Below the pieces are notes generated by a model, which was not told the origin of the DNA, did no database searches, and saw only the letters and a list, made by a program, of their open reading frames with translations. A DNA stretch of 64,000 bases from positions 6,496,001-6,560,000 of the forward strand of contig OY760175.1 of NCBI GenBank assembly GCA_963663165.1, read 5' to 3'. The stretch comes from an uncultured Desulfospira sp. Its GTDB lineage: Bacteria > Desulfobacterota > Desulfobacteria > Desulfobacterales > Desulfobacteraceae. How positions within the stretch are numbered: position 1 is the first letter of the stretch; the number at the start of each line of letters is the position of its first letter. Shown here one piece after another: positions 1 to 54,480 of the stretch. The position numbers were made by a program, and so were the translations under genes.

Positions 1-3000
1 CTGGGTTCATCTTTCACTTATGATTCCCAAGTGGATGATGATTATTCCGGTACCCTTTACATCAATGCTGAATCAGTTTCCAAAGCAGGACTCTCTCAGC
101 TGAACATCGGGGCCTACGATGAGGATTTGGATGAGAACGTGCTGGATACTCTGGAGGAGGCCGGATATACGGTGGAAGACGGGGTGATTTCCTGTGAAAC
201 CATTACCATTGAATCCGGGGCTGAGCTTTCAGGTCAGAGCATTACCCTGATTGCTGAAAAGGATATTGTCCTTGAAAAGGGGGCAGGGGTATCGGTGAGC
301 GGAGACAATGCTTATGCCGATATTGTCTCTACCTCAGGCACGCTTTCTTTGGCCGATAATTCATATATTATTTCTGAGCAATACTTGCGGCTGGAGGCGG
401 ATGCTCTTGAACGTTCCGGAACGATCACTGCCGGAACCGGCATCTCTTTTATATCCGACTATCTTTATCTGGCCGATATATCCGGCGAACAAAGTATTTC
501 AAAAGGCTTCGTGATTGATCAGAAATTGTGGGAAAGTTTGGCCTCTGTGGATACAGTATGGCTGACAGGTTACGAAGAGGTGGGATTTTCCGGAAAGGTG
601 AACCTTAAAACCGGTAGCGCCATTGTAATTGACTCCCCGCTTGTGGCCGGTCTTACAGATTCTGGAACAAAAGCAAGCCTCGTTTCGGATAGTATTTATC
701 TGTATAACTCTTCAGCAGATGAGGGCAGTGACATTTATTCAGGCAATGCGGGAAGCTTGTCAGCCGCTGCAGACAATATTTATATCGGATATGGGCAGGT
801 TCAGGCAACCGGGTTCTCTTCCATCAGCCTGACAGCAGACGAATATCTTACTTTTGTGGGAGAGGGCGGTTTTGTCACTAATGACGGAAACCTGAATATG
901 ATCGCCGGCATGGTCACTGGCACATACCGGACCTATACGGATGATGACGATGAAACTGCCTATGAAGCTGTGGATTTTACAATTGATTCCGGTGCAGGCA
1001 ATATTGCTATTAATTCCAGCGGCACTAATATATCCAACAACGGCAATATCGGTGGCAGCCTTGAGTTTACCGGAAATAGCATCATCAGTTCCGGCACCGT
1101 TTCTCTGAGTTCTGGTTATCTTTCCTTTACCGCTACCGGTACCGGCGATGAAGACGGCGTATTTTTAGAAAATGGTGCATTGGTATCTGCCGCCGGCTCA
1201 AGTTTGGATGATGTGGACTATGACGCCGGTACCGTGGTTTACCAGGCTGAGTCAGGCGCTGTCTTTCTTTCTGAAGGGTCAACGACCAATGTATCTGCCT
1301 CAAGCGCCAATGGAGATGCCGGCACCATCGCAATTTATGCGACTGAGGGTGAACTTTCTATTGAAGGCCGTCTTGAAGGCAGTTCAGAGAACGGCCTTGG
1401 TGGATCTTTCCTTCTCGATGCACTGGAACTGTCAGACCTCTCCAGCCTGATCGATACGCTTAGCGAGGGAGGGATTAATCATGATATTGATCTTAGGGCC
1501 CGGTCAGGAGACGTCAGCTTAACAACCGATGTCACCGCATACAACTTCAGGCTTTCTGTTGATGATGGAAATGTCAGTATCGACGCCGTAATCGACGCAT
1601 CTGGCGATGACGAAGGGGGACTGGTGGAAATTTATGCCGGCGGGGATCTTATCCTGTCCGACAACACCATGATTCTGGCCAAAGGAAATGACAACGGTGC
1701 TGCTGGCGGCGAAATAATTTTAGCCAATGCCACCACATCAGGCGGTTTTATGGATCTTGGCGACGCTGTCCTCAATGTTTCAGGGGGAAAAGGCGGCACA
1801 GGCGGCTCAATTTATCTTCGGGTGAACAGAACCGATGATAATTCAGATATAAAATTAAACCTGAATAGTGAAAAAATGATCGGGGCTTCGGAGCAGACTA
1901 TCGAGGGTGCTGCATTTTATCAGTCCACCTATAAATATACGTACAGAATTAAGGACGATGATTTCGAAACAGACAGCACCGCATATATGGAAGCATCGTC
2001 TTTTATTCTATCAGTTGAAGCTCAGGCTGATGAGGGCGGAGATTTTGAAGGATTTACCATTATTCCCGGTGTTGAATTCTGGTATGACGGAGAAGAGGAG
2101 CTTGTATGGTATGATGATGTAGATTTCACCGAATGGCGTTTCGGCAGTCAGAATGTACCAGTTGCTCTAACTCTCAGATCGTCAGGCGACCTTAAGGTTG
2201 ACGGCATCATTGTGGACGGTCCTACCAGCCTCTCCTACTATGACAACACCTTGAGTTCGGAAACGGTCCAGGATTCAATGAATATCACACTGGTGGCCGG
2301 TGCTACGTTAACCAGTGCGGATCCTTTTGCCGTTGAATCCGGAGTCGGCAATTTGGAAATTGATTCCGGGGAACTGGTGTATACCGAAAGCGGAAACATC
2401 AATTTCGCATCAGGCGGCGATACCCTTATTGAAAAGGTAAGTACCAGCTCCAGTGACTATTCCTACGGTGACACAAACGCATACATGACCTGGAATAAAT
2501 TAAATTACAGCATAGGGACCTATTCAGGCACCATCCGGGGGCAGGTGGGAGGAAATCTGGACCTGTATGGCGGGATTATTCAGACAGCAACCGGGGATAT
2601 TGTCCTGGAGGTTATGGAGAGCCTGTACCAAAGATCTTCTGGCGGAAATCTGGGCACTATCCGAACTCTCGGGGAGTTGGTTTCCGGGAGTTATGTTGAT
2701 AACGGTTTGTTTCAATACGACCAAACTACTCAGACGTCACTTTATTCCAATGGTGGCAATATCAGCATCACGACCGGTGAAGATGTGCTTGTGTGCACAA
2801 AGGATTACAGCCCTTCGGAATCTCTAATTGATTCTGACGCATGGGATACCGCAAGTTGGGTTTATGACGAAGACTATACCCCGTATCAATATGCATGGTC
2901 AGCAGATTATGATGACGGAACCCAGGGAATTGTTGCCATGGGAGGGGGGGATGTGACGATTATAGCCGGCGGGGATGTGCTGACTGCTGCAGGGACCTTT

Positions 3001-4950
3001 GGCACTGGTGACCTGTGGGTATCTGCCGGAGGAAATATTAACGGCGGGTATCTCAATTATGCAGGCACAGCTGAGATTTCCAGTCTGGGCAGTATTGGAA
3101 ATTTGGATGATGACGATGACGGTGACTGGGTCATTGAAGCCTTTGATTCAGAAATTACATTGCTTGCCCAAGGAAATATAACCTTGGCTTCGGTGGTCAA
3201 TCCTTCCCTCACAAGCAGTGATTTTTATAATTCCTGGAATTTTGGGTATACGGAGGATACTTCGGTGGCAATGACTGCCCGTACAGGGAATATTACCCTT
3301 ACTGGGGATGCGGACGAAGATCTGGATTTAACCACTACCAGCCGTCTTAAAATTTTGCCCGGCAGTGTATATCTGTCGGCTGGGATCGATATTGTATTTC
3401 AAAGTAATTTTTATCTGGCCCCAGCGTCTGACGGGTCATTGGAACTATATCCCGGAGAAAATATCAGTGCTGTCAATACCTCTGATTCTGAAAAATCTTA
3501 TACCATTCTCATGTCTGACGCTGACCCGGATGAGGTCTACGGAACACAGGAGAGTGCAAGAACAGCTTTAAGCCTGTTAACCAGCAAAAGTGAACACGGC
3601 AGCTCAATTCTCCACAAAAATGATGATTCACCTGTTGTAATCCTGGCTGGTTATAATATTGAAAATATAGGATTTGTTCTCCCCAAGGCGGCCACTATAA
3701 CGGCCGAAAATGATATTACCAACCTTTATCTTTTTTCCCAGAATCTCAGTGACGAAGATATCACGCTAGTTTATGCCGGTAATGACATTACCTTTAGGAC
3801 GGTAAGAGATGGGTCAGGTTCCTCGAACACGGGTATTACAGTCGGCGGTCCCGGTTTGACGGTTGTCCAGGCCGGTGGGAATATAGATCTTGGATCATCG
3901 GCCGGGGTAAAAGCTGTGGGAAGCTCTGAAAATACGTTGTTAAAAGAAGGAAATAACGATTTGGTAGTCATAGCAGGGCTGACAGCAAGCTATGCAGTGG
4001 AAAAAACGCAGGATTTTTTTGAGTATCTGACCGGCTTTTTTGAGGACCTGCTGGATGCGGGCAACGCATACGTAACGGCACAAAATGCCGGAGATACGGA
4101 TGGGGCAGATGCCATTGTTGCCGAGGCCAGACAGACAATCATTGCCGATCTGTTGGAAAATGCTTCCGGCAATGATGGAAATATTTCCCTTATAAACTCT
4201 ATGATTTATGTATCAGGTGGTTCTGGTAGTATCAACCTGGTCGCCACAGGGGACCTGGATGTAGGGGTCAGTGCGGTTGAACCTCCGCCTATCTTCGGTA
4301 CAGATAGCAGCAGCAGCGATGACAGCTCTGGGATCTACACCACTGTCGGAGGCAGCATAAATATTTATGCCTATGGCGATATCAACGTTAATGAATCTCG
4401 GGTTATGACTTTTGACGGTGGTGATATTGTACTCTGGTCCGACTACGGGGATATCAATGCTGGATACGGGTCGAAGGCGGCGGTGGCGTCTTCAGATTTT
4501 TATTATGTCCTACAGGATGATGGCAGCTATAAGAAGGTTTACCAGGTCCCGGCTATTGGTTCCGGTGTCCGGGCGACAGCCTCCAATTATGCAGCTGCCG
4601 GTGATATTTATGCCTTTGCCCCTTCAGGGATCATTGATGCCGGGGAAGCCGGCATTGCCGGTAACAACGTGACCCTGGCCGCCACGGAAATTCTCAATGC
4701 TCAGAATATTGAAGTGTCAGGGCTTGCTATCGGGTTTACAGCCGCCTCCGATTCTTCCGGCAGTGTGAGCGGATTGTCCGGTTCCAGTGGTCTTGCGGAT
4801 ACCGCCATGATGGATGAGGCCACCAGTGCGTTGAGTTCGGCCAAGGACCAGATGGGACAGGAAACAGCGGAAGGCTACAGCTATGAGCCCCGGTGGGTGG
4901 ATGTGGAAGTGGTGGGGTTTGAGGAAGATACGGATCAGGAAAAAGGATAA
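1..4950 (+). CDS. Filamentous-haemagglutinin-like (TpsA-like) large acidic exoprotein with DUF3739-type C-terminus; 5'-truncated by the window edge
   Basis: Frame is open from base 1. More than 1640 aa of Gly/Ser/Asp/Thr-rich beta-helix-like repeats (e.g. GDVTIIAGGDV, GSINIYAYGDINV). C-terminal segment GDIVLWSDYGDINAGYGSK...GSGVRA...GDIYAFAPSGIIDAGEAGIAG resembles the DUF3739 tail of FHA-family proteins. Confidence 0.8.
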   Translation: MGSSFTYDSQVDDDYSGTLYINAESVSKAGLSQLNIGAYDEDLDENVLDTLEEAGYTVEDGVISCETITIESGAELSGQSITLIAEKDIVLEKGAGVSVSGDNAYADIVSTSGTLSLADNSYIISEQYLRLEADALERSGTITAGTGISFISDYLYLADISGEQSISKGFVIDQKLWESLASVDTVWLTGYEEVGFSGKVNLKTGSAIVIDSPLVAGLTDSGTKASLVSDSIYLYNSSADEGSDIYSGNAGSLSAAADNIYIGYGQVQATGFSSISLTADEYLTFVGEGGFVTNDGNLNMIAGMVTGTYRTYTDDDDETAYEAVDFTIDSGAGNIAINSSGTNISNNGNIGGSLEFTGNSIISSGTVSLSSGYLSFTATGTGDEDGVFLENGALVSAAGSSLDDVDYDAGTVVYQAESGAVFLSEGSTTNVSASSANGDAGTIAIYATEGELSIEGRLEGSSENGLGGSFLLDALELSDLSSLIDTLSEGGINHDIDLRARSGDVSLTTDVTAYNFRLSVDDGNVSIDAVIDASGDDEGGLVEIYAGGDLILSDNTMILAKGNDNGAAGGEIILANATTSGGFMDLGDAVLNVSGGKGGTGGSIYLRVNRTDDNSDIKLNLNSEKMIGASEQTIEGAAFYQSTYKYTYRIKDDDFETDSTAYMEASSFILSVEAQADEGGDFEGFTIIPGVEFWYDGEEELVWYDDVDFTEWRFGSQNVPVALTLRSSGDLKVDGIIVDGPTSLSYYDNTLSSETVQDSMNITLVAGATLTSADPFAVESGVGNLEIDSGELVYTESGNINFASGGDTLIEKVSTSSSDYSYGDTNAYMTWNKLNYSIGTYSGTIRGQVGGNLDLYGGIIQTATGDIVLEVMESLYQRSSGGNLGTIRTLGELVSGSYVDNGLFQYDQTTQTSLYSNGGNISITTGEDVLVCTKDYSPSESLIDSDAWDTASWVYDEDYTPYQYAWSADYDDGTQGIVAMGGGDVTIIAGGDVLTAAGTFGTGDLWVSAGGNINGGYLNYAGTAEISSLGSIGNLDDDDDGDWVIEAFDSEITLLAQGNITLASVVNPSLTSSDFYNSWNFGYTEDTSVAMTARTGNITLTGDADEDLDLTTTSRLKILPGSVYLSAGIDIVFQSNFYLAPASDGSLELYPGENISAVNTSDSEKSYTILMSDADPDEVYGTQESARTALSLLTSKSEHGSSILHKNDDSPVVILAGYNIENIGFVLPKAATITAENDITNLYLFSQNLSDEDITLVYAGNDITFRTVRDGSGSSNTGITVGGPGLTVVQAGGNIDLGSSAGVKAVGSSENTLLKEGNNDLVVIAGLTASYAVEKTQDFFEYLTGFFEDLLDAGNAYVTAQNAGDTDGADAIVAEARQTIIADLLENASGNDGNISLINSMIYVSGGSGSINLVATGDLDVGVSAVEPPPIFGTDSSSSDDSSGIYTTVGGSINIYAYGDINVNESRVMTFDGGDIVLWSDYGDINAGYGSKAAVASSDFYYVLQDDGSYKKVYQVPAIGSGVRATASNYAAAGDIYAFAPSGIIDAGEAGIAGNNVTLAATEILNAQNIEVSGLAIGFTAASDSSGSVSGLSGSSGLADTAMMDEATSALSSAKDQMGQETAEGYSYEPRWVDVEVVGFEEDTDQEKG

Positions 4951-4975
4951 ATTGATTTCAATGTGGAGGAAAAAC

Positions 4976-6790
4976 GTGACTGAGGCGAGGGTTGGCAAAT
5001 TTTTATGGTTGTTGATGCTTCTGGTGATGATGACCTGGGCGATTGGACTGTCCAGCGCATCGGCCTGGTGGAATGAAGAGTGGCAGTACCGGAAAAAAAT
5101 CAGCCTGAACACTGGGGGCACCGGCATGGATGTCTCCCAGAATTTGATGGATTTCCCGGTTCTGATCAGGCTTCATTCCGGTAATTTTGATTTTACTCGG
5201 GCCAGGGAGAACGGGGAGGATATCCGGTTTGTCGGTGCCGATGACACCACCTTGCTCAAATATCATATTGAAGCCTTTGACATTGTGGACGAGCTGGCCC
5301 TGATCTGGGTCAAGGTGCCCAATCTTGCCGGAAACTCCGGCCAGGGCGCTGTGTTCATGTATTACGGCAATCAGGCCGCCGCTGCCGGGGACGACCCAAA
5401 GGGCTGCTTTGACCCCGCTTACCAGGGCGTCTATCATTTCAACGAGTTTGAGGGAATCCCCAAGGATTCATCCTCCTACGGCATGAATTCTTCTGAGTAT
5501 ACGGCCGGCCTGGGACTTGCCGGCGTTATCGGCAACGGCGGCACCTTCAGCGGGGCCGGCAATTATATGCGCCTGCCCGATAACCCGGCCTTTGATTTTT
5601 CCAAGGGGGTGACCTTTTCCACCTGGTTCAAGATGTTCCAGGCCCAGGATAATGCCTGGCTGTTTTCAAGGATTTCGTGGGAAGACGGCCTTGTTATTGC
5701 CATAAAGGGAACCCGGATACAAGTCAGGATCGTTGCTGAAGGGAAACAAACCGTTTATGAGGACGAGTCTTTTGACCTGCCCATAGAAGGGTGGCATCAT
5801 CTTGCGGTCACCATTGATCCCAAGGGACAGATTAAATTTTTTCTGGACGGGGCTGAAACCTCAACGGTTGAAAGCGGTGCCGGCCTGGCCGGGCTCAAAG
5901 GCGATATTCTGGTGGGATCCAATGCAGATGGAAATTATTCTTTTGCCGGCGACCTGGACGAGGTGAGGATCTCCGGAGCCCCAAGGCTTTTGGGGTGGAT
6001 CAAAGGCTGTTCTGCCTCCCAGGGGCCCGGGGCCAATTTATGCGGCTATGCGGTTGAAGAGATCCTTGAAGGCTCCGGGGGGATGCCCGTATTCTATCTT
6101 GCCACCATTTTCAAGAGCATTACCCTGGATGGCCTGGTGGTTATCGGTATCCTGATTTTCATGGGGGCTTGCTCTGCTGTGGTGATTTTGTCCAAGGCCC
6201 TGTTTCTTTTATCGACTTCCAAAAGCAATAAAAAGTTTATGGAAGCCTTTAATACCGCCCAGGACCCGGTGGCACTGGGAAATGGGAGCGGCTCTTTTAA
6301 CGGGTCCAGTATTTACAGAATTTATGAAGCCGGCCTGAAAAGTCTGAATATCAAAAAAACCGTAAACCCGGAAAGTGCTGAAATTGAGAGCCGGATTCCG
6401 GGACTGCACCTTACTTCAAAGGCAGTTGAAAGCTTGAAGGCTGTCCTGGAAAAAGGGCTGATTGACGAATCCAAGCGGTTGAACTCCTGGATGGTCATCC
6501 TGACCATGTCCATTTCCGGGGGACCGTTTCTGGGGCTTTTGGGAACGGTCTGGGGGGTTATGAATACCTTTGCCGCCATGGCTGAAGCCGGGGAGGCCAA
6601 TATCATGGCCATTGCCCCGGGCGTTGCCTCTGCCCTGTCCACAACGGTTTTTGGGTTGATTGTCGCCATTCCGGCCCTGTTTGGCTATTCCTTTCTGGTG
6701 GGCCGGATCCGGGATACCACGGCGGATCTGACCGTGTTCGTGGATCAGTTTCCTTTAAAAGTAGACGCCGTATATGGAGATGAATCGTGA
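4976..6790 (+). CDS. exbB: DUF2341 + LamG (ConA-like) domain protein fused to a MotA/TolQ/ExbB proton channel
   Basis: Signal peptide, then WWNEEWQYRKKI...DFPVLIRL...GEDIRF...LIWVKVP (DUF2341-like), WHHLAVT...FAGDLDEVRIS (LamG), and ExbB helices GGPFLGLLGTVWGVM and IAPGVASALSTTVFGLIVAIPA. GTG at 4976 follows GGAGGA; ATG 4961 is the alternative start. Confidence 0.85.
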   Translation: MTEARVGKFLWLLMLLVMMTWAIGLSSASAWWNEEWQYRKKISLNTGGTGMDVSQNLMDFPVLIRLHSGNFDFTRARENGEDIRFVGADDTTLLKYHIEAFDIVDELALIWVKVPNLAGNSGQGAVFMYYGNQAAAAGDDPKGCFDPAYQGVYHFNEFEGIPKDSSSYGMNSSEYTAGLGLAGVIGNGGTFSGAGNYMRLPDNPAFDFSKGVTFSTWFKMFQAQDNAWLFSRISWEDGLVIAIKGTRIQVRIVAEGKQTVYEDESFDLPIEGWHHLAVTIDPKGQIKFFLDGAETSTVESGAGLAGLKGDILVGSNADGNYSFAGDLDEVRISGAPRLLGWIKGCSASQGPGANLCGYAVEEILEGSGGMPVFYLATIFKSITLDGLVVIGILIFMGACSAVVILSKALFLLSTSKSNKKFMEAFNTAQDPVALGNGSGSFNGSSIYRIYEAGLKSLNIKKTVNPESAEIESRIPGLHLTSKAVESLKAVLEKGLIDESKRLNSWMVILTMSISGGPFLGLLGTVWGVMNTFAAMAEAGEANIMAIAPGVASALSTTVFGLIVAIPALFGYSFLVGRIRDTTADLTVFVDQFPLKVDAVYGDES

Positions 6791-7194
6791 GACGAGATCT
6801 TTTTCAGCAGGAAGATTTTAACGATATCAACTTAAGCCCCTTGCTGGACCTTGCCTGGACCCTGCTGGTGGTATTTATCATTGCGGTGACGGCTTCGGTT
6901 CAGGGAATCAAGGTTAATTTGCCCAAGGCCAGCAATGTGCCAAGCCTGGTTAAGCCCAAGACCAAGGCCATTACCATTGATGACCGGGGCCAGCTTTACC
7001 TGGATGCCTATCCCGTGACCATGACCGAACTCGAACAGAATCTGAGAGCCCACAAGGCCGTGGACCCCGATTTTCCCGTGGTGATCAAGGGGGATGCCAA
7101 AATCTATTACCAGAATGTCATGGATGTACTGGATTTAATGCAGAAACTTGAAATCACTCAATTGGGTCTGGTCACCCAGAAGCTGGTTAAATAA
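6787..7194 (+). CDS. exbD: Biopolymer transport protein ExbD/TolR
   Basis: DINLSPLLDLAWTLLVVFII transmembrane segment with the conserved Asp, then IKVNLP and VVIKGD..YQNVMDVLD. Overlaps the exbB stop (GTGA). Confidence 0.9.
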   Translation: MRRDLFQQEDFNDINLSPLLDLAWTLLVVFIIAVTASVQGIKVNLPKASNVPSLVKPKTKAITIDDRGQLYLDAYPVTMTELEQNLRAHKAVDPDFPVVIKGDAKIYYQNVMDVLDLMQKLEITQLGLVTQKLVK

Positions 7195-7198
7195 GCAC

Positions 7199-7897
7199 AT
7201 GGCCCGGTTGACTGACAGTCGAAAAAAGATCCTGGTGATCGGGGTGTCCTGCCTGGTGATGGTCTGCCTGATTTTTACGGCGTTTATCGTGATGAAAATG
7301 CTGCTCAATGATGAAGGCAAGTCCAGGAAACGGCAGATTCAGCGGGTGACGCTGGTTAAACCGCCGCCGCCGCCGCCCAAGATCAAGGAAAAACCCCCGG
7401 AGCCGGAGATCAAGAAAAAAGAGGAAATCGTTGAACCTGAGCTGGATGAACCGCCCCCGGAAGATATGGATTCCAGTGACGAACCGCCTCCGGGAGAAGA
7501 TCTGGGACTTGATTCTGACGGCACCGGCGGAGCCGACGGGTTCGGGCTCAGGGCCAAAAAGGGGGGGCGGTCCCTGATCGCCGGAGACGGCGGCGGAAAA
7601 AGATCCCTGATGAAACAGTATGCCTGGTATACCCGGATTCTGCAGGATGAAATCAGGGAAAAGGTCAACAAGTACCTTGAGGATAAAGAGGGCCTGCCCT
7701 CAGGCAAACACCGGATCATGATCCGGATTGAACTGGACCCCAATGGAAATCTGGTGAAGGCGTCTATTTTCGGATCAAGCGGAACTCCGAAGGTGGATAA
7801 TGCCGTGGAGCAGGCCATGGCAGGATTCAGGGCCAGCGAAAGCCCGCCTGAAGAGATGCCCAGGATATTAAAATTGAAAGTGACATTTAAAAGTTGA
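7199..7897 (+). CDS. TonB/TolA-like energy transducer
   Basis: N-terminal TM helix, Pro-rich linker (KPPPPPPKIKEKPPEPE), and TonB-C-like domain (SSGTPKVDNAVEQAM). Start ATG 7199 lies just after the exbD stop. Confidence 0.8.
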   Translation: MARLTDSRKKILVIGVSCLVMVCLIFTAFIVMKMLLNDEGKSRKRQIQRVTLVKPPPPPPKIKEKPPEPEIKKKEEIVEPELDEPPPEDMDSSDEPPPGEDLGLDSDGTGGADGFGLRAKKGGRSLIAGDGGGKRSLMKQYAWYTRILQDEIREKVNKYLEDKEGLPSGKHRIMIRIELDPNGNLVKASIFGSSGTPKVDNAVEQAMAGFRASESPPEEMPRILKLKVTFKS

Positions 7898-7919
7898 AAA
7901 AATCACAGCCAAGGAACCG

Positions 7920-9716
7920 ATGATGAAGGGTAGATTAAACGGATTGAAAAGGAAACTGACCGGTATTGCAATTGTTGTGCTGCTTGCGGCGTTGAGCATG
8001 CCGATCGCCTGGGCCGATGAAAAGGCTTCAGGGGCGGACTTAGACAGTACCCTGGCCTTGATTGAATTGTTAAAGGACAAGGGCGTGATCAATGAAAAAG
8101 AAGCCTCATCCTTTCTGGACAGGCTCAGGCTCAAGGCAGAGGCAAGCCGGCAGACCGTTCATATCCTTCCCGCCCGGGATCAGGAAGATATCATGAAAAA
8201 GGTCACTGCCCGGGTAACAAAGGATGTCACAAAGCAGATTAATGATACTCAAAAAGAAGCCTATGCCACAAACCAGTACATGGCCCGGCGTTCCTCGCTT
8301 TTGGAACAGGAAGTGGAAGACCTTAAAGATGCCCTGTCAAAGGAAAAAAGTGTGCGGGAAAAATCCTGGGCCAACCGGATACGGTTTGGGGGGGATATCC
8401 GGCTGCGCCACGAGTCAGTGCTTTATGAAAAGGGAAATGCCACGGATATTGAAGACCCCAGTGATCCGGATTCCTATCTGAATACCACCAATGATGAACA
8501 CCGCCAGCGGGTTCGCCTCAGGCTCGGCCTGACCGCCACCGTGGTCAAGCCAAAGGATATTGGCGAGCTGTTCGGCCTCAGGGAATGGGAAAAGGTGAAT
8601 GCCGGCCAGGTGGATGTGGGCGTCCGGGTGGCTACCGGAAGCGTTGGGAACCCGGTTTCCACCAACTACACCTTGGGAGATGATGACAGCACCCGGTCTG
8701 ATATTGTTTTAGACCGGGCTTACCTTCAATGGTCCTATAAACCCAGGGAAGGGGTCTGGGGCGGAAAGTTCCCCCAGGCAATGGTCACCGGCGGCATCAT
8801 GGCCAACCCCTGGTATACTTCCTATTCCACTCTGATCTGGGATTCGGACCTGGCCTTTGAAGGACTGGCTTTAAACTTTACCACCGACACCATTGAGGTC
8901 AATCCCTTTAAAGCTTTTTTGACCCTGGGATATTTCCCCATCCAGGAGTCTGAATGGAACCAGGACGACAAGTATATGCTGGGCGCCCAGGTCGGCTTTT
9001 CCCTTAAACCCCTCAGAGGGTGGCAGGCCAAACTGGCGGCCGGGTATTACGAATATTACAATGTGGCAGGCCAACTTATTACCGACACGTACCGGACCAG
9101 GGAGGATATGTACAAACTCCAGGCCATGACACCAAAATTTATGCAGAAGGGAAACACCACTTTTTTGATGGATCGGACCACAATTTACTACGACGGTATC
9201 AGTGACGACGCCTATGAGGAGTACGGGCTGGCATCAGAATTTAAGCTGATTAACATCACCGGCCAGATTGACAACACCTATTTCTGGCCGGTTTACGTCA
9301 CCCTTTACTGGGACTGGGTAAGGAACCTCGGATATGATGCCGGTGAAATGGCGGATAAAATCGGGGTCTCTGCTTCGACCATTAAAGAATGGTCCGGGGA
9401 TACCGGATATCAGCTGGGGCTGAGGGTCGGGTATCCCAAAATCAAGAAACGGTGGGACTGGAGCCTTTACGTGGCCTACCGCTACCTTGAAACCGATGCG
9501 GTTCTGGATGCGTATACCGATTCGGATTTCATGGGCGGCGGGACCAATGTCAAGGGATTTATTTTTGGCGGCGAGCTGGGCCTGATGAAAAATGTCTGGC
9601 TTGCGGCCCGGTGGATGAGCGGGGATGAGATTACCGATTTTGAAGCCGTGTCTTCAGATCAGGATGAGGATTATGCCGTGGATATTTTACAGGTTGATCT
9701 GAACGCAAAATTTTAA
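7920..9716 (+). CDS. Putative outer-membrane porin / beta-barrel ('putative porin' family) with N-terminal periplasmic helical region
   Basis: Signal peptide, LIELLKDKGVINEKEA N-terminal motif, RIRFGGDIRLRHE, RQRVRLRLG, DAVLDAYTDSDF.GGGTNVKG, and C-terminal QVDLNAKF (terminal Phe, BAM signal). Confidence 0.8.
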   Translation: MMKGRLNGLKRKLTGIAIVVLLAALSMPIAWADEKASGADLDSTLALIELLKDKGVINEKEASSFLDRLRLKAEASRQTVHILPARDQEDIMKKVTARVTKDVTKQINDTQKEAYATNQYMARRSSLLEQEVEDLKDALSKEKSVREKSWANRIRFGGDIRLRHESVLYEKGNATDIEDPSDPDSYLNTTNDEHRQRVRLRLGLTATVVKPKDIGELFGLREWEKVNAGQVDVGVRVATGSVGNPVSTNYTLGDDDSTRSDIVLDRAYLQWSYKPREGVWGGKFPQAMVTGGIMANPWYTSYSTLIWDSDLAFEGLALNFTTDTIEVNPFKAFLTLGYFPIQESEWNQDDKYMLGAQVGFSLKPLRGWQAKLAAGYYEYYNVAGQLITDTYRTREDMYKLQAMTPKFMQKGNTTFLMDRTTIYYDGISDDAYEEYGLASEFKLINITGQIDNTYFWPVYVTLYWDWVRNLGYDAGEMADKIGVSASTIKEWSGDTGYQLGLRVGYPKIKKRWDWSLYVAYRYLETDAVLDAYTDSDFMGGGTNVKGFIFGGELGLMKNVWLAARWMSGDEITDFEAVSSDQDEDYAVDILQVDLNAKF

Positions 9717-9727
9717 GGGGAAGGGTC

Positions 9728-10432
9728 ATGCGGTTAAAAATAATAAAAATCCTGGTGGTTCTTTTTATGTTGGCAGGCCTGTGCGGTTCAGCCTATTTCT
9801 GGAATGAAATGACCAAACGGGATGACCGGATTGCGGGTTTGAACAACGAGCTGGATGTCGCCAACACACAGCTGAGGGCTGCCCGTAAAAAATATACCCA
9901 GGAAAAGGCAAAGCTCGGGACCTGCATGCGGATGAAAATGGCTGAAGAGGCCAAAAAGCTTCAGTTTCAAAAACGGGTTAAGTTACTGGCCGAAGAAATG
10001 AAGGTTCTTGTGGCCCAGAATGAAGTGCTTGTGAAAAAACTTGAGGTTGCCGCAGCTTCCCTGGAAAATAAAGACAAATGGATAGAGGCCTATAAATCCA
10101 AAGTGGCCAAAATGGATGAGCGGTATGAAACCCTTGTGGCAAAGTACAAGGAGGCCGTGGTTCTGGACAGAAAGAAAACAGGTGACATCCGGCAACTGGA
10201 AGCTCAAAAGAAAGAAGTTGAATCAGAACTTGCCTTAACTCAAAAAAGCCTTGAGCGAAGCATCGGCCATAACAAAAGGCTTTGTGAACTTTCCGAGGAA
10301 CTGGTGGACAAATATTGGGATAAGAACAAAGACAAGGCTGAACCCTTTACTAAAATCGGGATGGTTGAACTCGAGCATCTGGTTCAGGAATATATTAAAC
10401 AGATTGATAAGGAGCAGATAATTGAGCAATGA
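9728..10432 (+). CDS. Membrane-anchored coiled-coil protein
   Basis: N-terminal hydrophobic anchor followed by about 200 aa of Lys/Glu-rich heptads; tightly linked to the porin gene. Confidence 0.75.
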   Translation: MRLKIIKILVVLFMLAGLCGSAYFWNEMTKRDDRIAGLNNELDVANTQLRAARKKYTQEKAKLGTCMRMKMAEEAKKLQFQKRVKLLAEEMKVLVAQNEVLVKKLEVAAASLENKDKWIEAYKSKVAKMDERYETLVAKYKEAVVLDRKKTGDIRQLEAQKKEVESELALTQKSLERSIGHNKRLCELSEELVDKYWDKNKDKAEPFTKIGMVELEHLVQEYIKQIDKEQIIEQ

Positions 10433-11562
10433 AAGGCGGGTTTAAATTTTTGTTCGTTTCCGCTGTTTTGCTGGCCTGGGCAGCTGGGGTTCCGGCCTCT
10501 GCCCAGGTTTTAAAATTAAGCTATGATCAGGGGGCTGTGAGCCTGCAGCCGGGACGGGCATCTGTCGCATCCATTCTGGAAAGCCTGGCAGACTTGGCCA
10601 AGGTAGAGATTTATATCACAGAACCATTTAAAGACTATTCAAATGATTTAGAATTTAAGCGGATTCCCCTTGAATCGGCCCTGGAAAAATTACTCAAAGA
10701 TTATAATTATGCCGTGATTTACAATCAGAGTACGGCTGAACCGTTCAGATGCTTTGCCTATACGGATGCTGATGCTTTCAGCCCGGTTGGCCGGGGCCGG
10801 ACAGGCAGCGGCACCCCGGGAAAAAAACAATGGAAATCCCCTGGGGAAACCGGCAGGGACCGTCATGCTATTGGCTTTTTTCCGGGGCAGGACGGCCAGA
10901 AATCAGGGAAGAGCGGCCAAAGATTTGGTTCAAAAAGTTCTTCGGATATAAGGTCAAAGGCGGGCGCCGCCGGGGCGTTCAATCCATCGGAAAATGCTGT
11001 GGCCCATAATGATGATGCATCCTTGGAAAACAGTGAATCAGATGATTCAGCCTATGATACCGACAGCAGCTTGGGTTCCGCTGAAAGCGGATCAACCGGT
11101 TCTATTTCCAGTGGAATTTCTCAAAGCAGTACCGGTTCACAGGACAGCAGCACCACGGCCCAAACCGTCGAGGACGCTTCAACTCAGACCGCCTATATCA
11201 ATTCATCAGATGAATCCGACGGCACTTCAGATACCGGTATCGATGAATCTGACCCATCGGATACTGATGATTCGGGCAGCTCAGGTTCCGATGATTCAGG
11301 TTCAGAAAGCAGCTTCGCTGAAGACGTTGATCTGGCAGATGGAACGGAAAATCAGACCCAGACGGCGGAAACAGACGCCACGGCATCACAGATCGCAAAA
11401 CTTGAATATCAGGTTGAGAAGCTGGAAGAGGATATCTCAAGCGGAAGGGCAGAGAAGTTCTGGAATTTATGGACTTCAAAGAAAGAAGCAAAGTATGTCT
11501 ACAGCCATGTGGATGACCTGGCCGCCAAAAAAGCAAAACTGGCTGAATTGAAAGGTGAATAA
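10429..11562 (+). CDS. Exported protein: STN/secretin-N0-like domain, long Ser/Asp-rich linker, C-terminal coiled coil
   Basis: Signal peptide (AWAAGVPASA), ASVASILESLADLAKVEIYI...IPLESALEKLLKDYNYAVIY resembling STN/N0 domains, and a low-complexity SDDSGS region. Overlaps the upstream stop. Confidence 0.6.
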   Translation: MKGGFKFLFVSAVLLAWAAGVPASAQVLKLSYDQGAVSLQPGRASVASILESLADLAKVEIYITEPFKDYSNDLEFKRIPLESALEKLLKDYNYAVIYNQSTAEPFRCFAYTDADAFSPVGRGRTGSGTPGKKQWKSPGETGRDRHAIGFFPGQDGQKSGKSGQRFGSKSSSDIRSKAGAAGAFNPSENAVAHNDDASLENSESDDSAYDTDSSLGSAESGSTGSISSGISQSSTGSQDSSTTAQTVEDASTQTAYINSSDESDGTSDTGIDESDPSDTDDSGSSGSDDSGSESSFAEDVDLADGTENQTQTAETDATASQIAKLEYQVEKLEEDISSGRAEKFWNLWTSKKEAKYVYSHVDDLAAKKAKLAELKGE

Positions 11563-11607
11563 AATTAATCCCTTCAGCCGGAGTACCAGCAGTCTTTTAA
11601 AAACCTA

Positions 11608-12141
11608 ATGAAAGGAAACCGCAGTATGTACAAACAAACAGCATGTCTGGCCATCGGCGTTATTTTTATTTTACTTTCTGCCTGTACCGGAATGGCCGGC
11701 AGCAAGGTCGGGTATATTGACCTTAAGCGTCTGGTCCAGGAGTCCACCCTGGGCAAAGCGGCCATGGCCGATATTGACCGGTTAAGGCAAGAAAAGCAAA
11801 AGCCCATTGCCGAGTTGCTTAAAACGATCAATAACATTAAAATTGACCTTCAGGCCAATGAAGAGTTGTTCAAAAATGAGGAAAAAAGAGAAAAGGTCGA
11901 TGAACTCAATGACCTGACCAAAGAATATAAGAGAATGGTCGCCGATGCCAAAGAAGAGATCCAGAAACAGGACCGGGACCTGGTGGCCCAGATCCTGAAA
12001 AAGGCGGACAGCATCGTTAAAGCCGTGGCTCAGAAAAATAAATACACCATCATTCTCAAAGATCCCCAGGCCATCGGGTATCTTGATCCTTCCGTGGATA
12101 TTACAGACGAAGTCCTGGCAGAACTTAATAAGACAAATTAA
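11608..12141 (+). CDS. skp: OmpH/Skp periplasmic chaperone
   Basis: Signal peptide, KVGYIDLKRLVQES..GKAA, helical body, and C-terminal VDITDEVLAELN. Confidence 0.85.
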   Translation: MKGNRSMYKQTACLAIGVIFILLSACTGMAGSKVGYIDLKRLVQESTLGKAAMADIDRLRQEKQKPIAELLKTINNIKIDLQANEELFKNEEKREKVDELNDLTKEYKRMVADAKEEIQKQDRDLVAQILKKADSIVKAVAQKNKYTIILKDPQAIGYLDPSVDITDEVLAELNKTN

Positions 12142-12725
12142 TTGTTGATGAAGCCCCGGTCCAGATGCGTGTCCACATACCGGGCCAGGATTTCGGCTGT
12201 CTGGGGCGGGGGGTTGACTGTCAGGTAGTGGTCTATGATGGAGTGGGCCAGTTCGTGGGCCAGCATGCCCTGGTGAAGGTCCTGGACGTTGAGGTAGATG
12301 GCGTTGGTCTTGAACCGGTACCAGGCCCTGAGCCGGCATTCTCCGGAATAGATGCTCTCATATGCTTTCTTTAAGGCCTTTTTATCCGGGTAAACAAAGA
12401 CGGTGACCGGATCATCGAACAGTTTTCTCATGTCCAGAATTTCCTGGGCCCGGGTGAAAATGGCGTCTACTTTTTGAGTGACCATATCCTCAATCTGCTC
12501 ATGGGTCAGGTCTTCGAGTTCCAGGGACCGGTTCAGGTCCAGGGGGCCGAATTCTACGGCCGTGTGAAACCGGGCCAGATCCCGGGCAGATTTGTATTTT
12601 ATAATGGTGTGCTGGGTTTTGAGAATTCGCCAGGAAATAATGTGGATTTCGTCCGCTCCGGCAGATAATGGGCAAACCATTAAGATAAGCAGCGCAAGGT
12701 GTATGGCCAAAAAAGGAGTTTTCAA
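12138..12725 (-). CDS. Exported protein with HExxH zincin-like motif
   Basis: Signal peptide (CPLSAGA) and GMLAHELAHSII motif followed by a downstream Glu (AEILA). Confidence 0.65.
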   Translation of the reverse strand: MKTPFLAIHLALLILMVCPLSAGADEIHIISWRILKTQHTIIKYKSARDLARFHTAVEFGPLDLNRSLELEDLTHEQIEDMVTQKVDAIFTRAQEILDMRKLFDDPVTVFVYPDKKALKKAYESIYSGECRLRAWYRFKTNAIYLNVQDLHQGMLAHELAHSIIDHYLTVNPPPQTAEILARYVDTHLDRGFINN

Positions 12726-12750
12726 AGAAAGCCCTGCAGGGTTCTTAGGA

Positions 12751-13323
12751 TTAGTTATTCAATTTAAACTGGTTCCTTATGTCGGATTTGAGAGCGGCGA
12801 TTTCCTCGCCCATACGCCCGTTGTCCATTCCTTCTATCTGTGAAAGCCTGGCATCAATGTGAGAGATTTTTTCATGCATGGAAGACGTCATCTGGTTTAA
12901 TGCCGTTGATATGTCGGACAACTGGTCTTTTTTGCGCAGGTTGACCTTTACCCTGAGATCCCCCTGGGCCACTTCCTTTATCCCTTTCTCAAAATGGAAA
13001 AGCGGGCCCGCTATTTTGTGGGAAATAAAGAGCATGACGGCCATGGAAAACAGGCAAATCAGGCCGAGGGTGACCAGGTTGGTGACCAGGACAGCCGGAA
13101 GGATGGCCTGACCCGTGCTTTTAATCTCAAGCCTTGAATGGGCGTAACAGGAGGTCAGGCTGTCCTGGGACAGTGAGAACAGCAGGATGGTTGATATCAG
13201 AATCCCTGCCAGGACAATGAGGCTGAATTTCAGGATAACACCGGCCTGAAATCTTTTTTTAATGAAATATTGGTTTCTTTTGCACGGTTCTTCCTGACAG
13301 GTTGCCGTCCGGGTTTGGTTCAT
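12751..13323 (-). CDS. Two-TM membrane protein with HAMP domain and no output domain
   Basis: RNQYFIKKRFQ N-terminus, two TM helices, and HAMP (SHKIAGPLFHFEKGIKEVAQGDLRVKVNLRKKDQL); ends shortly after the HAMP. Confidence 0.75.
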   Translation of the reverse strand: MNQTRTATCQEEPCKRNQYFIKKRFQAGVILKFSLIVLAGILISTILLFSLSQDSLTSCYAHSRLEIKSTGQAILPAVLVTNLVTLGLICLFSMAVMLFISHKIAGPLFHFEKGIKEVAQGDLRVKVNLRKKDQLSDISTALNQMTSSMHEKISHIDARLSQIEGMDNGRMGEEIAALKSDIRNQFKLNN

Positions 13324-13364
13324 GATTCTATCCTTTTTAAAAAGCTAACAGCTAAAACCAACAG

Positions 13365-13958
13365 CTATAAAAGTTCGTCGTATACTTTGATGTCGGCTTT
13401 ATTCTTTAAGCTGTCCACCCATTGATCGATAAGGGCGGCCTGTTTTTCCTGTTTAAGTTTTTGAGCAATTTTTTGTTCTACCTGCTCTATAGGCGGCAGG
13501 TCCTTTTTCTGGGTTTTCAGTTGATCATACCGGGTTTTTATTTCCTGGTCCGTGACAAAGGTTTTGGTTTGAATTTCTTTCATCTGGGCTTCCATGAGGT
13601 TTTTGATCAGGGTGGCTTCCCAGTATTTTTCAATGGTCCGGATAAAGGATTGTTCCTTGTCCATTTTCCGGCTGACCGCCTCCTGGATCAACAGTTCCTG
13701 CCGGATCATCCGGTCAAGAAATTCTTTTCTTGCCTTGGCCGTGGCCTTGTAGGTTGAATCGTACTCCAGCTCCCGGACAAATCCGGCTTCGTATTCATCC
13801 AGTGTCAGTTCGTAGCCGTTGATTCTGGCAATAACCTGTTGGTCCGGATTTGAAGGCGTTGTTGAGCAGGCCGGCAAATAAAAGGCCAGGAAAATTGCCC
13901 CGCCCAGAATTCCGGCGGCAAAGGCCCTTTGGGACCGGGTGCTGCTGTGAAAAAACAT
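13365..13958 (-). CDS. SurA N-terminal-domain (chaperone-like) lipoprotein
   Basis: Lipobox-like LPAC, VIARINGYELT, FLDRMIRQELLIQEA, and C-terminal WVDSLKNKADIKVY; no parvulin domain. Start placed at ATG 13958. Confidence 0.75.
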   Translation of the reverse strand: MFFHSSTRSQRAFAAGILGGAIFLAFYLPACSTTPSNPDQQVIARINGYELTLDEYEAGFVRELEYDSTYKATAKARKEFLDRMIRQELLIQEAVSRKMDKEQSFIRTIEKYWEATLIKNLMEAQMKEIQTKTFVTDQEIKTRYDQLKTQKKDLPPIEQVEQKIAQKLKQEKQAALIDQWVDSLKNKADIKVYDELL

Positions 13959-14344
13959 GGTACGATTTCCTTGCTGCCAAAGGTCATTTTTACAGACTTT
14001 GAATTTAATATAGAACCCTGGCAACGGTCAAATTAGGAAATGGTTAGGATATATCGCCTTCCCCTGAAAACCCAATCGCCATGGGGCCTGAAAACCTTCA
14101 CCACGGAGGAATTCGGCTTGACATGGTCAGGTGATACCGATATATTAAAATCAAATTTAATTTTCTCCAGCAATCGGTTTCGTCTATCTTTAATATTCTA
14201 TCTCATCTGGTTTTTGACAGCTGTTTCAAAGAATACATAATTCGAATCTGTTTTTTCGCGGTGACAGGCCCCGGACTCCCGGACCTGTCAGTCCCCGGCC
14301 GATAAAACGGCATGAATAACGGCCATACCCTAAAGGGCAGAAAC

Positions 14345-54455: not shown

Positions 54456-54480
54456 ATTTTGAATTTTTGGAGATAAAAAC

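What the first reader, a model, noticed from the sequence alone, without database searches (positions are those of the whole stretch)
1..12141. Candidate proton-motive-force-powered export/assembly system for a giant FHA-like exoprotein
Seen: eight tightly linked co-oriented genes. In order they encode an acidic FHA/DUF3739-like protein, ExbB carrying a large DUF2341+LamG extension, ExbD with its conserved Asp, a TonB-like protein, a porin-like barrel, a coiled-coil protein, an STN-like protein and Skp. No TonB-dependent receptor and no TolB/Pal are encoded in this cluster. Known: classical two-partner secretion needs only TpsA and TpsB and no Ton motor, while ExbBD-TonB normally serves plug-containing receptors. 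From memory, similar FHA/DUF2341/ExbD/TonB/porin clusters occur in other proteobacteria, but I know of no mechanism for them. Inference: this is a dedicated trans-envelope machine in which the Ton-like motor acts on the porin to secrete, anchor or import through the FHA-like protein.
Basis: partly seen in the sequence, partly recalled or inferred. Interest (0 to 1): 0.85.

Follow-up and report, generated by a model that had tools for sequence, protein, structure and literature searches.

The report
Ton motor linked to giant adhesin
This is a gene cluster, shared by many unrelated bacteria and already listed but unexplained in Pseudomonas aeruginosa, in which a proton-powered envelope motor is inherited together with a giant surface protein and a plug-less pore, and the motor may pull on the surface protein's tail instead of on a nutrient receptor.

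Summary
The eight genes are real and in the stated order, but they are the 3' part of a 13-gene unit. Upstream lie a c-di-GMP-I riboswitch, a PEP-CTERM protein, a PstS-like protein, two FKBP-like proteins, a TpsB and the start of a 3,245-aa TpsA. The core (TpsB, DUF3739-TpsA, DUF2341/LamG-ExbB, ExbD, TonB, Porin_5, coiled-coil) is co-inherited: DUF3739 and full-length Porin_5 share 9 of 9 positive genomes in one 301-genome sample and 6 of 7 in another. It is orthologous to P. aeruginosa pdtA/pdtB/exbB2-exbD2-tonB4/PA0696-PA0697, whose Ton part is published as uncharacterised. The STN-like and Skp genes are local extras. The porin models as an OmpM-like 16-strand barrel with a periplasmic stalk and no plug, so classical TonB gating is unlikely. 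Nearly all DUF3739 proteins end in a flexible spacer and a conserved free beta-strand, and VreA-type adaptors carry a paralogue of this system's TonB domain. Best guess (0.4): TonB grips that strand in the periplasm, coupling proton-motive force to a surface receptor/adhesin used for phosphate capture and attachment. No binding was shown, and the strand fails a canonical TonB-box profile.

The parts
1..4950 (+). Last 1,649 residues of TpsA (3,245 aa, acidic: 15% D+E, 3% K+R; starts at G000:C1 6,491,213). Upstream of the window, on the same strand and part of the unit (G000:C1 positions): c-di-GMP-I riboswitch 6,484,990-6,485,132; PEP-CTERM protein 6,485,179-6,485,874; PstS/DING-like protein 6,485,903-6,487,297; FKBP-like 6,487,496-6,488,356; FKBP + thioredoxin 6,488,356-6,489,579; TpsB 6,489,596-6,491,179
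   Evidence: ORFs; TPS E 3e-22, DUF3739 E 3e-28, POTRA_2 + ShlB, PBP_like_2, PEP-CTERM, Thioredoxin_7; Rfam RF01051 41 bits locally and 34.5 bits genome-wide against a cut-off of 35; PstS residues; composition
4417..4740 (+). DUF3739: last beta-helix turns of TpsA
   Evidence: Pfam; model beta-helix residues 1-135 of the last 200 aa; FHA secretion domain Z 8.0, rmsd 2.5, 93 aligned
4888..4920 (+). Conserved C-terminal strand of TpsA (P-R-W-V-D-V-E-V-V-G-F) behind a roughly 45-residue flexible/helical spacer; candidate motor-binding box
   Evidence: Pattern in 74 of 80 distinct DUF3739 C-termini against 4 of 1,360 background windows; unpaired in the monomer model; fails a canonical TonB-box profile
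4961..6790 (+). ExbB/TolQ-type channel subunit with signal peptide and periplasmic DUF2341 + LamG extension, 609 aa
   Evidence: 46/24/34% to the ExbB2-position gene of P. aeruginosa
6787..7194 (+). ExbD/TolR-type subunit with conserved Asp20
   Evidence: 56% to the ExbD2-position gene
7199..7897 (+). Dedicated TonB-like transducer: TM helix without the His motif, Pro-rich linker, TonB_2-type C-terminal domain
7920..9716 (+). Porin_5: 16-strand barrel, no plug, N-terminal helical hairpin plus 60-residue helix (OmpM-like stalk), conserved Arg cluster on strands 1-3
   Evidence: Model pLDDT 77.6; OmpM1 Z 26.0, OprP Z 20.9; conserved charges; 31% to the P. aeruginosa putative porin
9728..10432 (+). 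N-terminally anchored coiled-coil protein, orthologue of the PA0697-position gene
   Evidence: Iterated profile finds the gene right after the porin across loci, including L114; present in 57 of 69 and 68 of 68 loci
10429..11562 (+). STN/secretin-N0-like domain + acidic low-complexity linker + helical end; accessory
   Evidence: homologues in only 5 loci
11608..12141 (+). Skp/OmpH chaperone; accessory
   Evidence: 4 of 59 related loci

Best explanation
A dedicated trans-envelope machine built around a two-partner-secreted surface protein. SHOWN by sequence and genomics: TpsB and a 3,200-4,500-aa DUF3739 TpsA are co-inherited with their own ExbB(DUF2341/LamG)-ExbD-TonB motor, a plug-less stalked porin, usually a coiled-coil protein and usually a PstS-like binding protein. 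FROM KNOWN FAMILIES: TpsB exports the TpsA beta-helix without needing energy, and TpsAs such as HMW1, HxuA and CdrA keep their C-terminus in the periplasm. INFERRED: the conserved terminal strand of TpsA hangs in the periplasm on its flexible spacer and is gripped by the TonB C-terminal domain by beta-strand addition. TpsA then takes the place of the missing plug-and-box receptor, and proton-motive force tensions, retains, remodels or releases it. INFERRED, weaker: the porin stalk and the coiled-coil brace the outer membrane at this site, and the Arg-lined pore admits phosphate or phospho-compounds captured at the surface by the PstS-like protein. The job is surface-attached phosphate capture and adhesion, switched by c-di-GMP in this lineage and by PhoB/sigma-VreI in Pseudomonas. 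Odds by step: dedicated machine orthologous to the P. aeruginosa locus 0.95; TonB acts on the TpsA tail 0.4; phosphate-related job 0.5.
For: Co-occurrence: 9 of 9 and 6 of 7 overlaps in two 301-genome samples; DUF3739 in 48 of 48 chosen porin genomes; TonB, ExbD and DUF2341-ExbB directly upstream of the porin in 62 of 66, 61 of 64 and 52 of 55 loci. No plug and a helical N-terminus in the porin model. Terminal strand in 74 of 80 C-termini against 4 of 1,360 background windows, and unpaired in the monomer model after a disordered spacer. Cys pairs after the strand in 5 of 74, like the periplasmic anchors described for HMW1/HxuA and CdrA (PMC5422565; PMC11898600). VreA-type STN-TonB adaptors score 40-64 bits on the system TonB profile (7 of 7), like held-out system TonBs (29-66, 4 of 4) and above generic TonBs (7-14) and TolA (22). 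In G614 each of three TpsAs follows its own STN-TonB adaptor and FecR gene while one motor and porin serve all, the slot a receptor fills in cell-surface signalling. PstS-like gene in 36 of 40 regions on the tpsA side with the phosphate-site residues invariant. The P. aeruginosa locus is induced by phosphate starvation (PMC4971064, PMC9769906). GEMM-I hit before the head genes in 19 of 40 regions, with Rfam confirming 7 of 8 checked.
Against: The strand scores far below real TonB boxes on a profile of 23 boxes from this genome: mean -3.5 against 16-21 (training scores, so inflated), and it is the best-scoring 8-mer in only 2 of 60 tails; the likeness is one of spacing only. Covariation between the strand and TonB was not distinguishable from that with ExbD or the porin at 32-52 effective sequences. 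The periplasmic location of this C-terminus is not shown; most tails, including the window's, have no Cys hook. The strand could equally pair with TpsB, DUF2341/LamG or the PstS-like protein. In P. aeruginosa VreA is not needed for sigma-VreI activity in low phosphate or in vivo (PMC4971064, PMC7035377), and the window's genome has no VreA-type domain. No pho box was found before this operon (best match 5 mismatches). The TonB TM lacks the usual His (present in 11 of 86 homologues), so energy coupling is assumed from the ExbD Asp and the ExbB Thr motif.
Confidence: 0.4

Rival explanations
1. The motor acts on the porin: TonB, directly or through the coiled-coil protein, pulls on the periplasmic stalk to open constricting loops or to position the pore. 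TpsA is a passive surface scaffold that feeds ligand to it, like HxuA feeding HxuC.
For: tonB lies directly before the porin in 62 of 66 and 57 of 57 loci, a tighter link than to tpsA. The stalk is long (helix 88-148). Loci lacking the coiled-coil gene have longer porin N-termini: 11 of 12 at 209-418 residues against a median of 150 (upper-bound starts). Conserved Arg cluster and acidic late loop; OprP is the second-best structural match.
Against: No plug and no beta-strand box in the stalk. OmpM-type stalks act as tethers on diffusion pores (PMC10628300). This does not explain why the TpsA terminal strand is kept in nearly all members.
Confidence: 0.25
2. The motor powers secretion or surface assembly of TpsA: it acts on TpsB or on the translocating chain, with DUF2341/LamG, the PPIases and Skp as chaperones.
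For: tpsB often directly precedes exbB. FKBP or PpiC isomerases recur (FKBP in 23 of 40 regions; PpiC). TpsA is very large and acidic.
Against: The passages read list no Ton-powered export and describe PdtA/PdtB as a TPS pair (PMC5422565, PMC7035377). Export of equally large FHA and CdiA without a motor is established knowledge (recalled). This does not explain the porin or the PstS-like gene.
Confidence: 0.15
3. A Tol-Pal-like or OmpM-like envelope brace: motor, coiled-coil and stalked porin hold the outer membrane to the cell where a giant adhesin bears load, with no transport role.
For: The best NCBIfam matches of the channel subunits are TolQ and TolR, both below cut-off. The TonB domain is TonB_2/TolA-like. 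The top structural match of the porin is the OM tether OmpM1. The c-di-GMP riboswitch and PEP-CTERM gene point to sessile life.
Against: No SLH, Pal or TolB in the cluster. A separate Tol-Pal-like cluster exists at about 2.21 Mb. The phosphate-site PstS-like gene is unexplained.
Confidence: 0.12
4. An ordinary Ton set that serves unlinked TonB-dependent receptors and only shares regulation with the TPS pair.
For: 31 receptor-barrel matches in this genome. One related locus (G598, L246) has a receptor gene nearby.
Against: Near-perfect co-occurrence of DUF3739 and Porin_5, with this Ton set beside the porin. Two other ExbBD-TonB sets exist in this genome. This TonB is a distinct subfamily.
Confidence: 0.05

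Closest known systems
P. aeruginosa PUMA3/sigma-VreI regulon: pdtA (PA0690), pdtB (PA0692), exbB2-exbD2-tonB4 (PA0693-95), PA0696, PA0697
   Same: All seven core genes are homologous. The locus carrying the P. aeruginosa porin (L114) has the published gene order, with DUF3739, DUF2341/LamG-ExbB, ExbD, TonB, porin and coiled-coil. The locus tags are assigned from gene order and the papers' tables, not from accessions.
   Different: No vreA-type domain in this genome. No Hxc T2SS, LapA, Phd or YbjN gene in the cluster. Instead a c-di-GMP-I riboswitch, a PEP-CTERM protein, a different PstS-like protein and FKBP-like genes; tpsB precedes tpsA.
Haemophilus HxuA/HxuB/HxuC
   Same: A TpsA held at the surface by its C-terminus, encoded with its TpsB and a TonB-dependent outer-membrane uptake protein (PMC5422565 passages).
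   Different: HxuC is a TonB-dependent transporter. Here the barrel is a plug-less 16-strand porin, the motor is private and TpsA is about three times longer.
OmpM1 of Veillonella parvula (PDB 8BYM)
   Same: 16-strand barrel with an N-terminal periplasmic helical stalk; Z 26.0, rmsd 3.7, 304 aligned.
   Different: No SLH domain detected; larger loops; 18% identity; encoded with a Ton motor; trimer not tested.
CdrA/CdrB of P. aeruginosa
   Same: A c-di-GMP-controlled TPS adhesin retained by a C-terminal element (PMC11898600 passages).
   Different: CdrA uses a cysteine hook and LapG cleavage, with no motor described. Here only 5 of 74 tails have a Cys pair and the constant element is a beta-strand.
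OprP phosphate porin and PstS/DING proteins
   Same: Fold match Z 20.9 and a conserved Arg cluster; PstS phosphate-site residues kept in the upstream gene.
   Different: OprP ties with general porins (Z 19-21) and trails OmpM1; selectivity is not shown. The binding protein has extra Cys-containing insertions and no linked ABC transporter here.

Membership tests
Two-partner secretion (type Vb) | TpsA with N-terminal TPS domain and beta-helix | tested here: met
   PF05860 E 3e-22, TIGR01901 above cut-off; C-terminal model matches FHA/HMW1/HxuA beta-helices
Two-partner secretion (type Vb) | Cognate POTRA + ShlB-type TpsB | tested here: met
   Adjacent gene, 33 nt upstream of tpsA
Two-partner secretion (type Vb) | TpsB-dependent export | not testable with these tools
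   Needs secretion assays
P. aeruginosa pdtA-PA0697 locus type | DUF3739-TpsA, TpsB, DUF2341/LamG-ExbB, ExbD, TonB, Porin_5 and coiled-coil together | tested here: met
P. aeruginosa pdtA-PA0697 locus type | PUMA3 (VreA/VreI/VreR) control | tested here: not met
   Six-frame scan of the genome with the system TonB profile finds only this TonB and TolA; no ECF/FecR gene among the neighbours scanned
Ton/Tol motor | ExbB/TolQ channel with Thr motif; ExbD/TolR with TM Asp; TM-anchored transducer with TonB/TolA C-terminal fold | tested here: met
Ton/Tol motor | His motif in the transducer TM helix (recalled feature) | tested here: not met
   Absent in the window's TonB; His in 11 of 86 homologues
TonB-dependent transporter | 22-strand barrel with plug and N-terminal TonB box | tested here: not met
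   16 long strands and no plug in the model; no box-like 8-mer in the N-terminal region
Canonical TonB box | Sequence profile of receptor TonB boxes | tested here: not met
   TpsA strand mean -3.5 against 16-21 for the 23 training boxes
Canonical TonB box | Binds the TonB C-terminal domain by beta-strand addition | not tested
   No complex prediction was obtained; covariation inconclusive
Tol-Pal | TolB and Pal in the cluster | tested here: not met
   a separate Tol-Pal-like cluster at about 2.21 Mb, recognised from its ORFs
OmpM | 16-strand barrel with periplasmic coiled-coil stalk | tested here: met
   (monomer model)
OmpM | N-terminal SLH domain | tested here: not met
   No SLH match in the N-terminal region of three homologues at E 0.05
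OmpM | Trimer | not tested
   Monomer only
OprP/OprO phosphate porins | Arginine ladder and phosphate selectivity | tested here: inconclusive
   Eight conserved Arg on or beside strands 1-3; Z ties with general porins; lumen geometry not inspected
c-di-GMP-I riboswitch | Rfam model above cut-off; G20 for c-di-GMP rather than A20 for cGAMP | tested here: met
   41 bits locally, 34.5 bits genome-wide; G20; rule from PMC6140456 passages
PstS/DING phosphate-binding proteins | Phosphate-site Asp and R-x-x-G-S-G-T | tested here: met
   Asp174, Arg293 and Ser-Gly-Thr 297-299 invariant in 44 aligned sequences; PDB matches; residue roles recalled

The most novel reading that the evidence does not exclude
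A split TonB-dependent system: the outer-membrane target of the proton-driven motor is the C-terminal strand of a two-partner-secreted giant beta-helix. The passenger supplies the receptor and box, a free STN-TonB adaptor (VreA type) supplies the signalling domain where present, and an OmpM-like stalked porin supplies the channel. It would be a motor-actuated surface filament for phosphate capture and adhesion, spread over several phyla, and would name the unknown partner of P. aeruginosa TonB4 and VreA.
Probability: 0.3. Interest if true: 0.88.

Novelty: new variant of a known kind. Interest (0 to 1): 0.63.

Why it matters
Ton motors are known to act on plug-containing receptors and Tol motors on TolB, while type Vb secretion is regarded as motor-free. 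This machine has neither usual target, yet it occurs in about 2-3% of the genomes sampled from two phyla (7 of 301, 9 of 301) and in about 2,500 protein clusters at 50% identity. In P. aeruginosa the locus is strongly induced by phosphate starvation and during infection, its Ton genes were still called uncharacterised in 2020, and the partner of VreA's TonB-like domain has been open since 2009. The conserved terminal strand, the TonB-subfamily link to VreA, the plug-less stalked porin and the PstS-like partner turn that question into single-peptide and single-mutant tests. The riboswitch shows the same machine wired to c-di-GMP in sulfate reducers and their relatives.

Tried and rejected
A complex prediction of TonB with the TpsA tail was not available, so binding is untested. 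TonB-box profile test: negative. Inter-protein covariation: TonB Ile86 topped the list, but ExbD and porin columns scored alike and the signal follows the clade split, so it is inconclusive. SHOCT-like reading of the porin's N-terminal hairpin: seen by eye, not found by Pfam. Pho-box scan of 23 operon heads: no better than shuffles. Sigma-54 scan: 7 of 23 at 2 or fewer mismatches against 41 of 460 shuffles, but most hits lack the GG/GC core, so not claimed. Sigma-70 promoter and terminator scans of the cluster: near chance level. No PDB sequence relative of Porin_5 or of the DUF2341 part (only the LamG part matched). ESM Atlas gave unnamed clusters for the STN-like and coiled-coil proteins. 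Short Porin_5 matches (about 420-480 aa, several per genome, 35 of 301 genomes including a few marginal hits) were set aside as a different, unexamined subfamily before counting co-occurrence. The STN-like and Skp genes were rejected as core parts. Literature: DUF2341 (9 papers) and DUF3739 (1 paper, on maize) gave no mechanism (search listings and one paper's passages). The Sphingobium and Janthinobacterium papers were irrelevant (passages). Faure 2014 was not held. No paper supplements were read; Fig. S5 of PMC2729926 was seen as a legend only and may bear on how much of the gene association is already published.
Full report
Observation. The eight ORFs are present on the + strand from 1 to 12,141 with gaps of -4 to 45 nt. 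Pfam gives DUF3739; DUF2341 + LamG + MotA_ExbB; ExbD; TonB_2; Porin_5; nothing; nothing; and OmpH. The seventh gene has a sub-threshold STN/secretin-N0 domain. The genome has 31 receptor-barrel matches, the nearest about 165 kb away, four ExbD-type genes, and one copy each of Porin_5 and DUF3739. The closest named homologues of the porin are from Desulfobacter and Desulfobacula.

The unit is longer than the window. The first ORF is the end of a 3,245-aa TpsA with a TPS domain. It is preceded by a ShlB-type TpsB, two FKBP-like genes, a 464-aa PstS-like gene and a PEP-CTERM gene, all co-oriented, at G000:C1 6,485,179-6,491,179. A c-di-GMP-I riboswitch ends 46 nt before the first ATG: 41 bits against a cut-off of 35 in local scans, 34.5 bits in the genome-wide scan. 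Position 20 is G, the c-di-GMP rather than cGAMP state (PMC6140456, passages).

Co-occurrence. In 301 genomes of the window's phylum, full-length Porin_5 (over 350 bits) occurs in 7 and DUF3739 in 7, with 6 shared, counting the window's genome. The two mismatches are assemblies of 240 and 830 contigs. Another 35 genomes had only short Porin_5 matches and were set aside. In 301 genomes of the phylum of a Hydrogenophaga genome both occur in the same 9, counting the centre; three more genomes had only short porin matches. All 8 non-centre positives have DUF2341-ExbB, ExbD and TonB next to the porin. I gave 48 of the 80 porin loci to a genome search, chosen for long flanks: all 48 genomes hold DUF3739, 46 of them in open frames of 3,224-3,792 aa. 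Among 79 of those loci (one duplicate dropped), counting only loci with enough flank, TonB precedes the porin in 62 of 66, ExbD in 61 of 64, DUF2341 in 52 of 55 and DUF3739 in 45 of 48; the coiled-coil gene follows in 57 of 69, the STN-like gene in 2 of 61 and Skp in 4 of 59. In 80 metagenome loci found with the P. aeruginosa porin the figures are 57 of 57, 54 of 54, 45 of 45, 15 of 35 and 68 of 68, so tpsA is often further away there. Kin are not independent, but the named loci include Desulfobacterota, Nitrospira-type, Methylomirabilis and alpha-, beta- and gammaproteobacterial records. In 40 regions fetched on the tpsA side, a PstS-like gene was found in 36, TpsB in 35, PEP-CTERM in 27, FKBP in 23, and a GEMM hit before the head genes in 19. 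That profile was built from six riboswitches of such clusters; Rfam confirmed 7 of 8 checked.

It is the orthologue of a published locus. A P. aeruginosa protein cluster (568 aa, 1,011 members) is 31% identical to the window's porin. A locus that encodes it exactly (L114) reads DUF3739-TpsA end, Phd-like, TpsB, DUF2341/LamG-ExbB, ExbD, TonB, porin, coiled-coil, YbjN, PpiC isomerase, TonB-like, LysR, and a last gene read as AraC-like by eye. This is the order pdtA to PA0701a in PMC7035377, which calls exbB2-exbD2-tonB4 a still uncharacterised putative TonB system and PA0696-PA0700 unknown (passages). The tags are assigned by gene order, not by accession. PMC2729926 already noted that TPS, exbBD and PA0696 homologues go together in several bacteria; it found no single mutant attenuated in zebrafish; and it modelled VreA as STN plus a TolA/TonB domain with an unknown partner (passages). 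The locus needs PhoB and sigma-VreI (PMC4971064, passages), and PdtA and PA0696 are among the proteins most enriched in low phosphate (PMC9769906, passages). PMC12505986 names DUF2341 as an unexplained motor appendage (passages). I found no mechanism for the motor in searches of a library that lacks most subscription papers; Faure 2014 was not held.

The porin. The model (pLDDT 77.6, 35 sequences) has 16 long strands from residue 154, a helical hairpin at 43-75, a 60-residue helix at 88-148 and no plug. The best match by both methods is OmpM1 (Z 26.0, rmsd 3.7, 304 aligned); OprP (20.9) ties with general porins at 19-21, and FecA is at 12.4. OmpM1 is a trimeric porin with a coiled-coil stalk that tethers the outer membrane (PMC10628300, abstract and one section). 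Eight Arg on or beside the first three strands, and an acidic late loop, are conserved. Loci without the coiled-coil gene have longer porin N-termini in 11 of 12 cases, which suggests that stalk and coiled-coil are parts of one periplasm-spanning element. Classical plug pulling has nothing to act on here.

The TpsA tail. DUF3739 is the end of the beta-helix. It is followed by a G/S/A-rich spacer, a helix and a strand with the consensus P-[S/K]-[W/F]-h-x-V-x-V-h-[G/S]-F, then a short charged end. The pattern is found in 74 of 80 distinct C-termini and in 4 of 1,360 background windows. It is also in 134 of the 150 best profile hits, which is partly circular, out of 2,536 clusters at E 1e-10. In the monomer model the strand has no partner. 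Five of 74 tails add a Cys pair, the type of anchor described for HMW1, HxuA and CdrA (PMC5422565 and PMC11898600, passages). Against: the strand scores -3.5 on average on a profile of 23 TonB boxes taken from 28 of this genome's receptors, whose own scores are 16-21, and it ranks first in only 2 of 60 tails. Covariation with TonB could not be told from clade structure. No complex model was obtained.

The TonB subfamily. A profile of 60 system TonB domains scores four held-out system TonBs at 29-66 bits, seven VreA-type adaptors at 40-64, TolA at 22 and three generic TonBs at 7-14. In the window's genome it finds only this TonB and TolA. In G614 one motor-porin-TpsB block serves three TpsAs, each preceded by its own STN-TonB adaptor and FecR gene, with an ECF gene detected before one of the three and before the motor block. 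That is the layout of receptors in cell-surface signalling, with TpsA in the receptor slot. The counter-evidence is that VreA is dispensable for sigma-VreI activity in the conditions tested.

The PstS-like gene. In 44 homologues the G-A-x-A start, an Asp, and the Arg and S-G-T of R-x-x-G-S-G-T are invariant, and the PDB matches are PstS and DING proteins. In Pseudomonas-type loci a PBP-family gene and type II secretion genes flank tpsA; in one deltaproteobacterial genome PhoU and a PstS-type gene flank the cluster. No pho box was found before this operon, so phosphate control here is not shown; c-di-GMP control is the better-supported input.

Mechanism. Shown: composition, co-inheritance, orthology, a plug-less stalked barrel (as a model), the conserved terminal strand and the TonB subfamily. 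Inferred: that the C-terminus stays in the periplasm, that TonB binds the strand, and what the force does. I put TonB acting on the TpsA tail at 0.4, on the porin stalk or coiled-coil at 0.25, motor-assisted secretion at 0.15, a pure envelope brace at 0.12 and a generic Ton at 0.05. The likely job is attachment-linked capture of phosphate or phospho-compounds (about 0.5).

Verdict. Real and conserved; a regulatory and cargo variant of a locus known from P. aeruginosa whose mechanism is open. Novelty: new variant of a known kind. Interest 0.63, because the analysis gives a specific, cheap test of a long-open question; 0.88 if the motor proves to act on the secreted passenger (probability about 0.3).

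Noticed in passing
many genomes, e.g. L011-L023: A second, shorter Porin_5-like subfamily (about 420-480 aa, often several copies, some in tandem) in about 35 of 301 genomes of this phylum, none of which had DUF3739; neighbourhoods not examined.
   Followed up: no
window 12138-14024 (-): Three genes converging on the cluster: a secreted protein of no family, a small HAMP membrane protein, and a SurA_N/EpsD-like protein that resembles genes found after the porin in several related loci.
   Followed up: partly
L068 (G323:C1, about 1.61 Mb): The DUF3739 TpsA of this Hydrogenophaga genome is split over two overlapping frames; the DUF3739 frame is only 1,176 aa. Frameshift or sequencing error not resolved.
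   Followed up: no
L060, L065, L070, L074, L077, L093, L094, L098, L113, L195, L245: Several betaproteobacterial versions carry two tandem ExbD genes.
   Followed up: no
L114:12934-14286 and L237:6027-6485: Small stand-alone proteins with the system-type TonB domain (34 bits each), at the PA0700 position in L114; possible competitors or chaperones for the same target.
   Followed up: partly
L135, L137, L148, L173, L114 (TpsA C-termini): Pseudomonas-type TpsAs repeat a second V-Q-V-L-G strand about 25 residues after the first and end in a short helix-like stretch.
   Followed up: no
L038:4479-5862: Two cobalamin riboswitches and a c-di-GMP-I riboswitch in series before a PEP-CTERM gene downstream of the porin.
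   Followed up: no
G000:C1 6,440,000-6,453,000 (upstream of the window): CRISPR-like repeats and a cas gene set that looks like type I-E, followed by a WYL-like regulator; read from ORF starts only.
   Followed up: no
G000:C1 6,469,000-6,478,000 (upstream of the window): MoxR/vWA/Bat-like operon, recognised from ORF starts only.
   Followed up: no
window 14000-64000: Mostly housekeeping genes (proA/proB-like, gmk, obg, rho, prfA, rpsB, tsf), two tRNAs, two chemoreceptors, a lone phage-CI/S24 repressor at 48932-49582 and an HdrA-like/FlpD/MetF block at 50965-56066.
   Followed up: no
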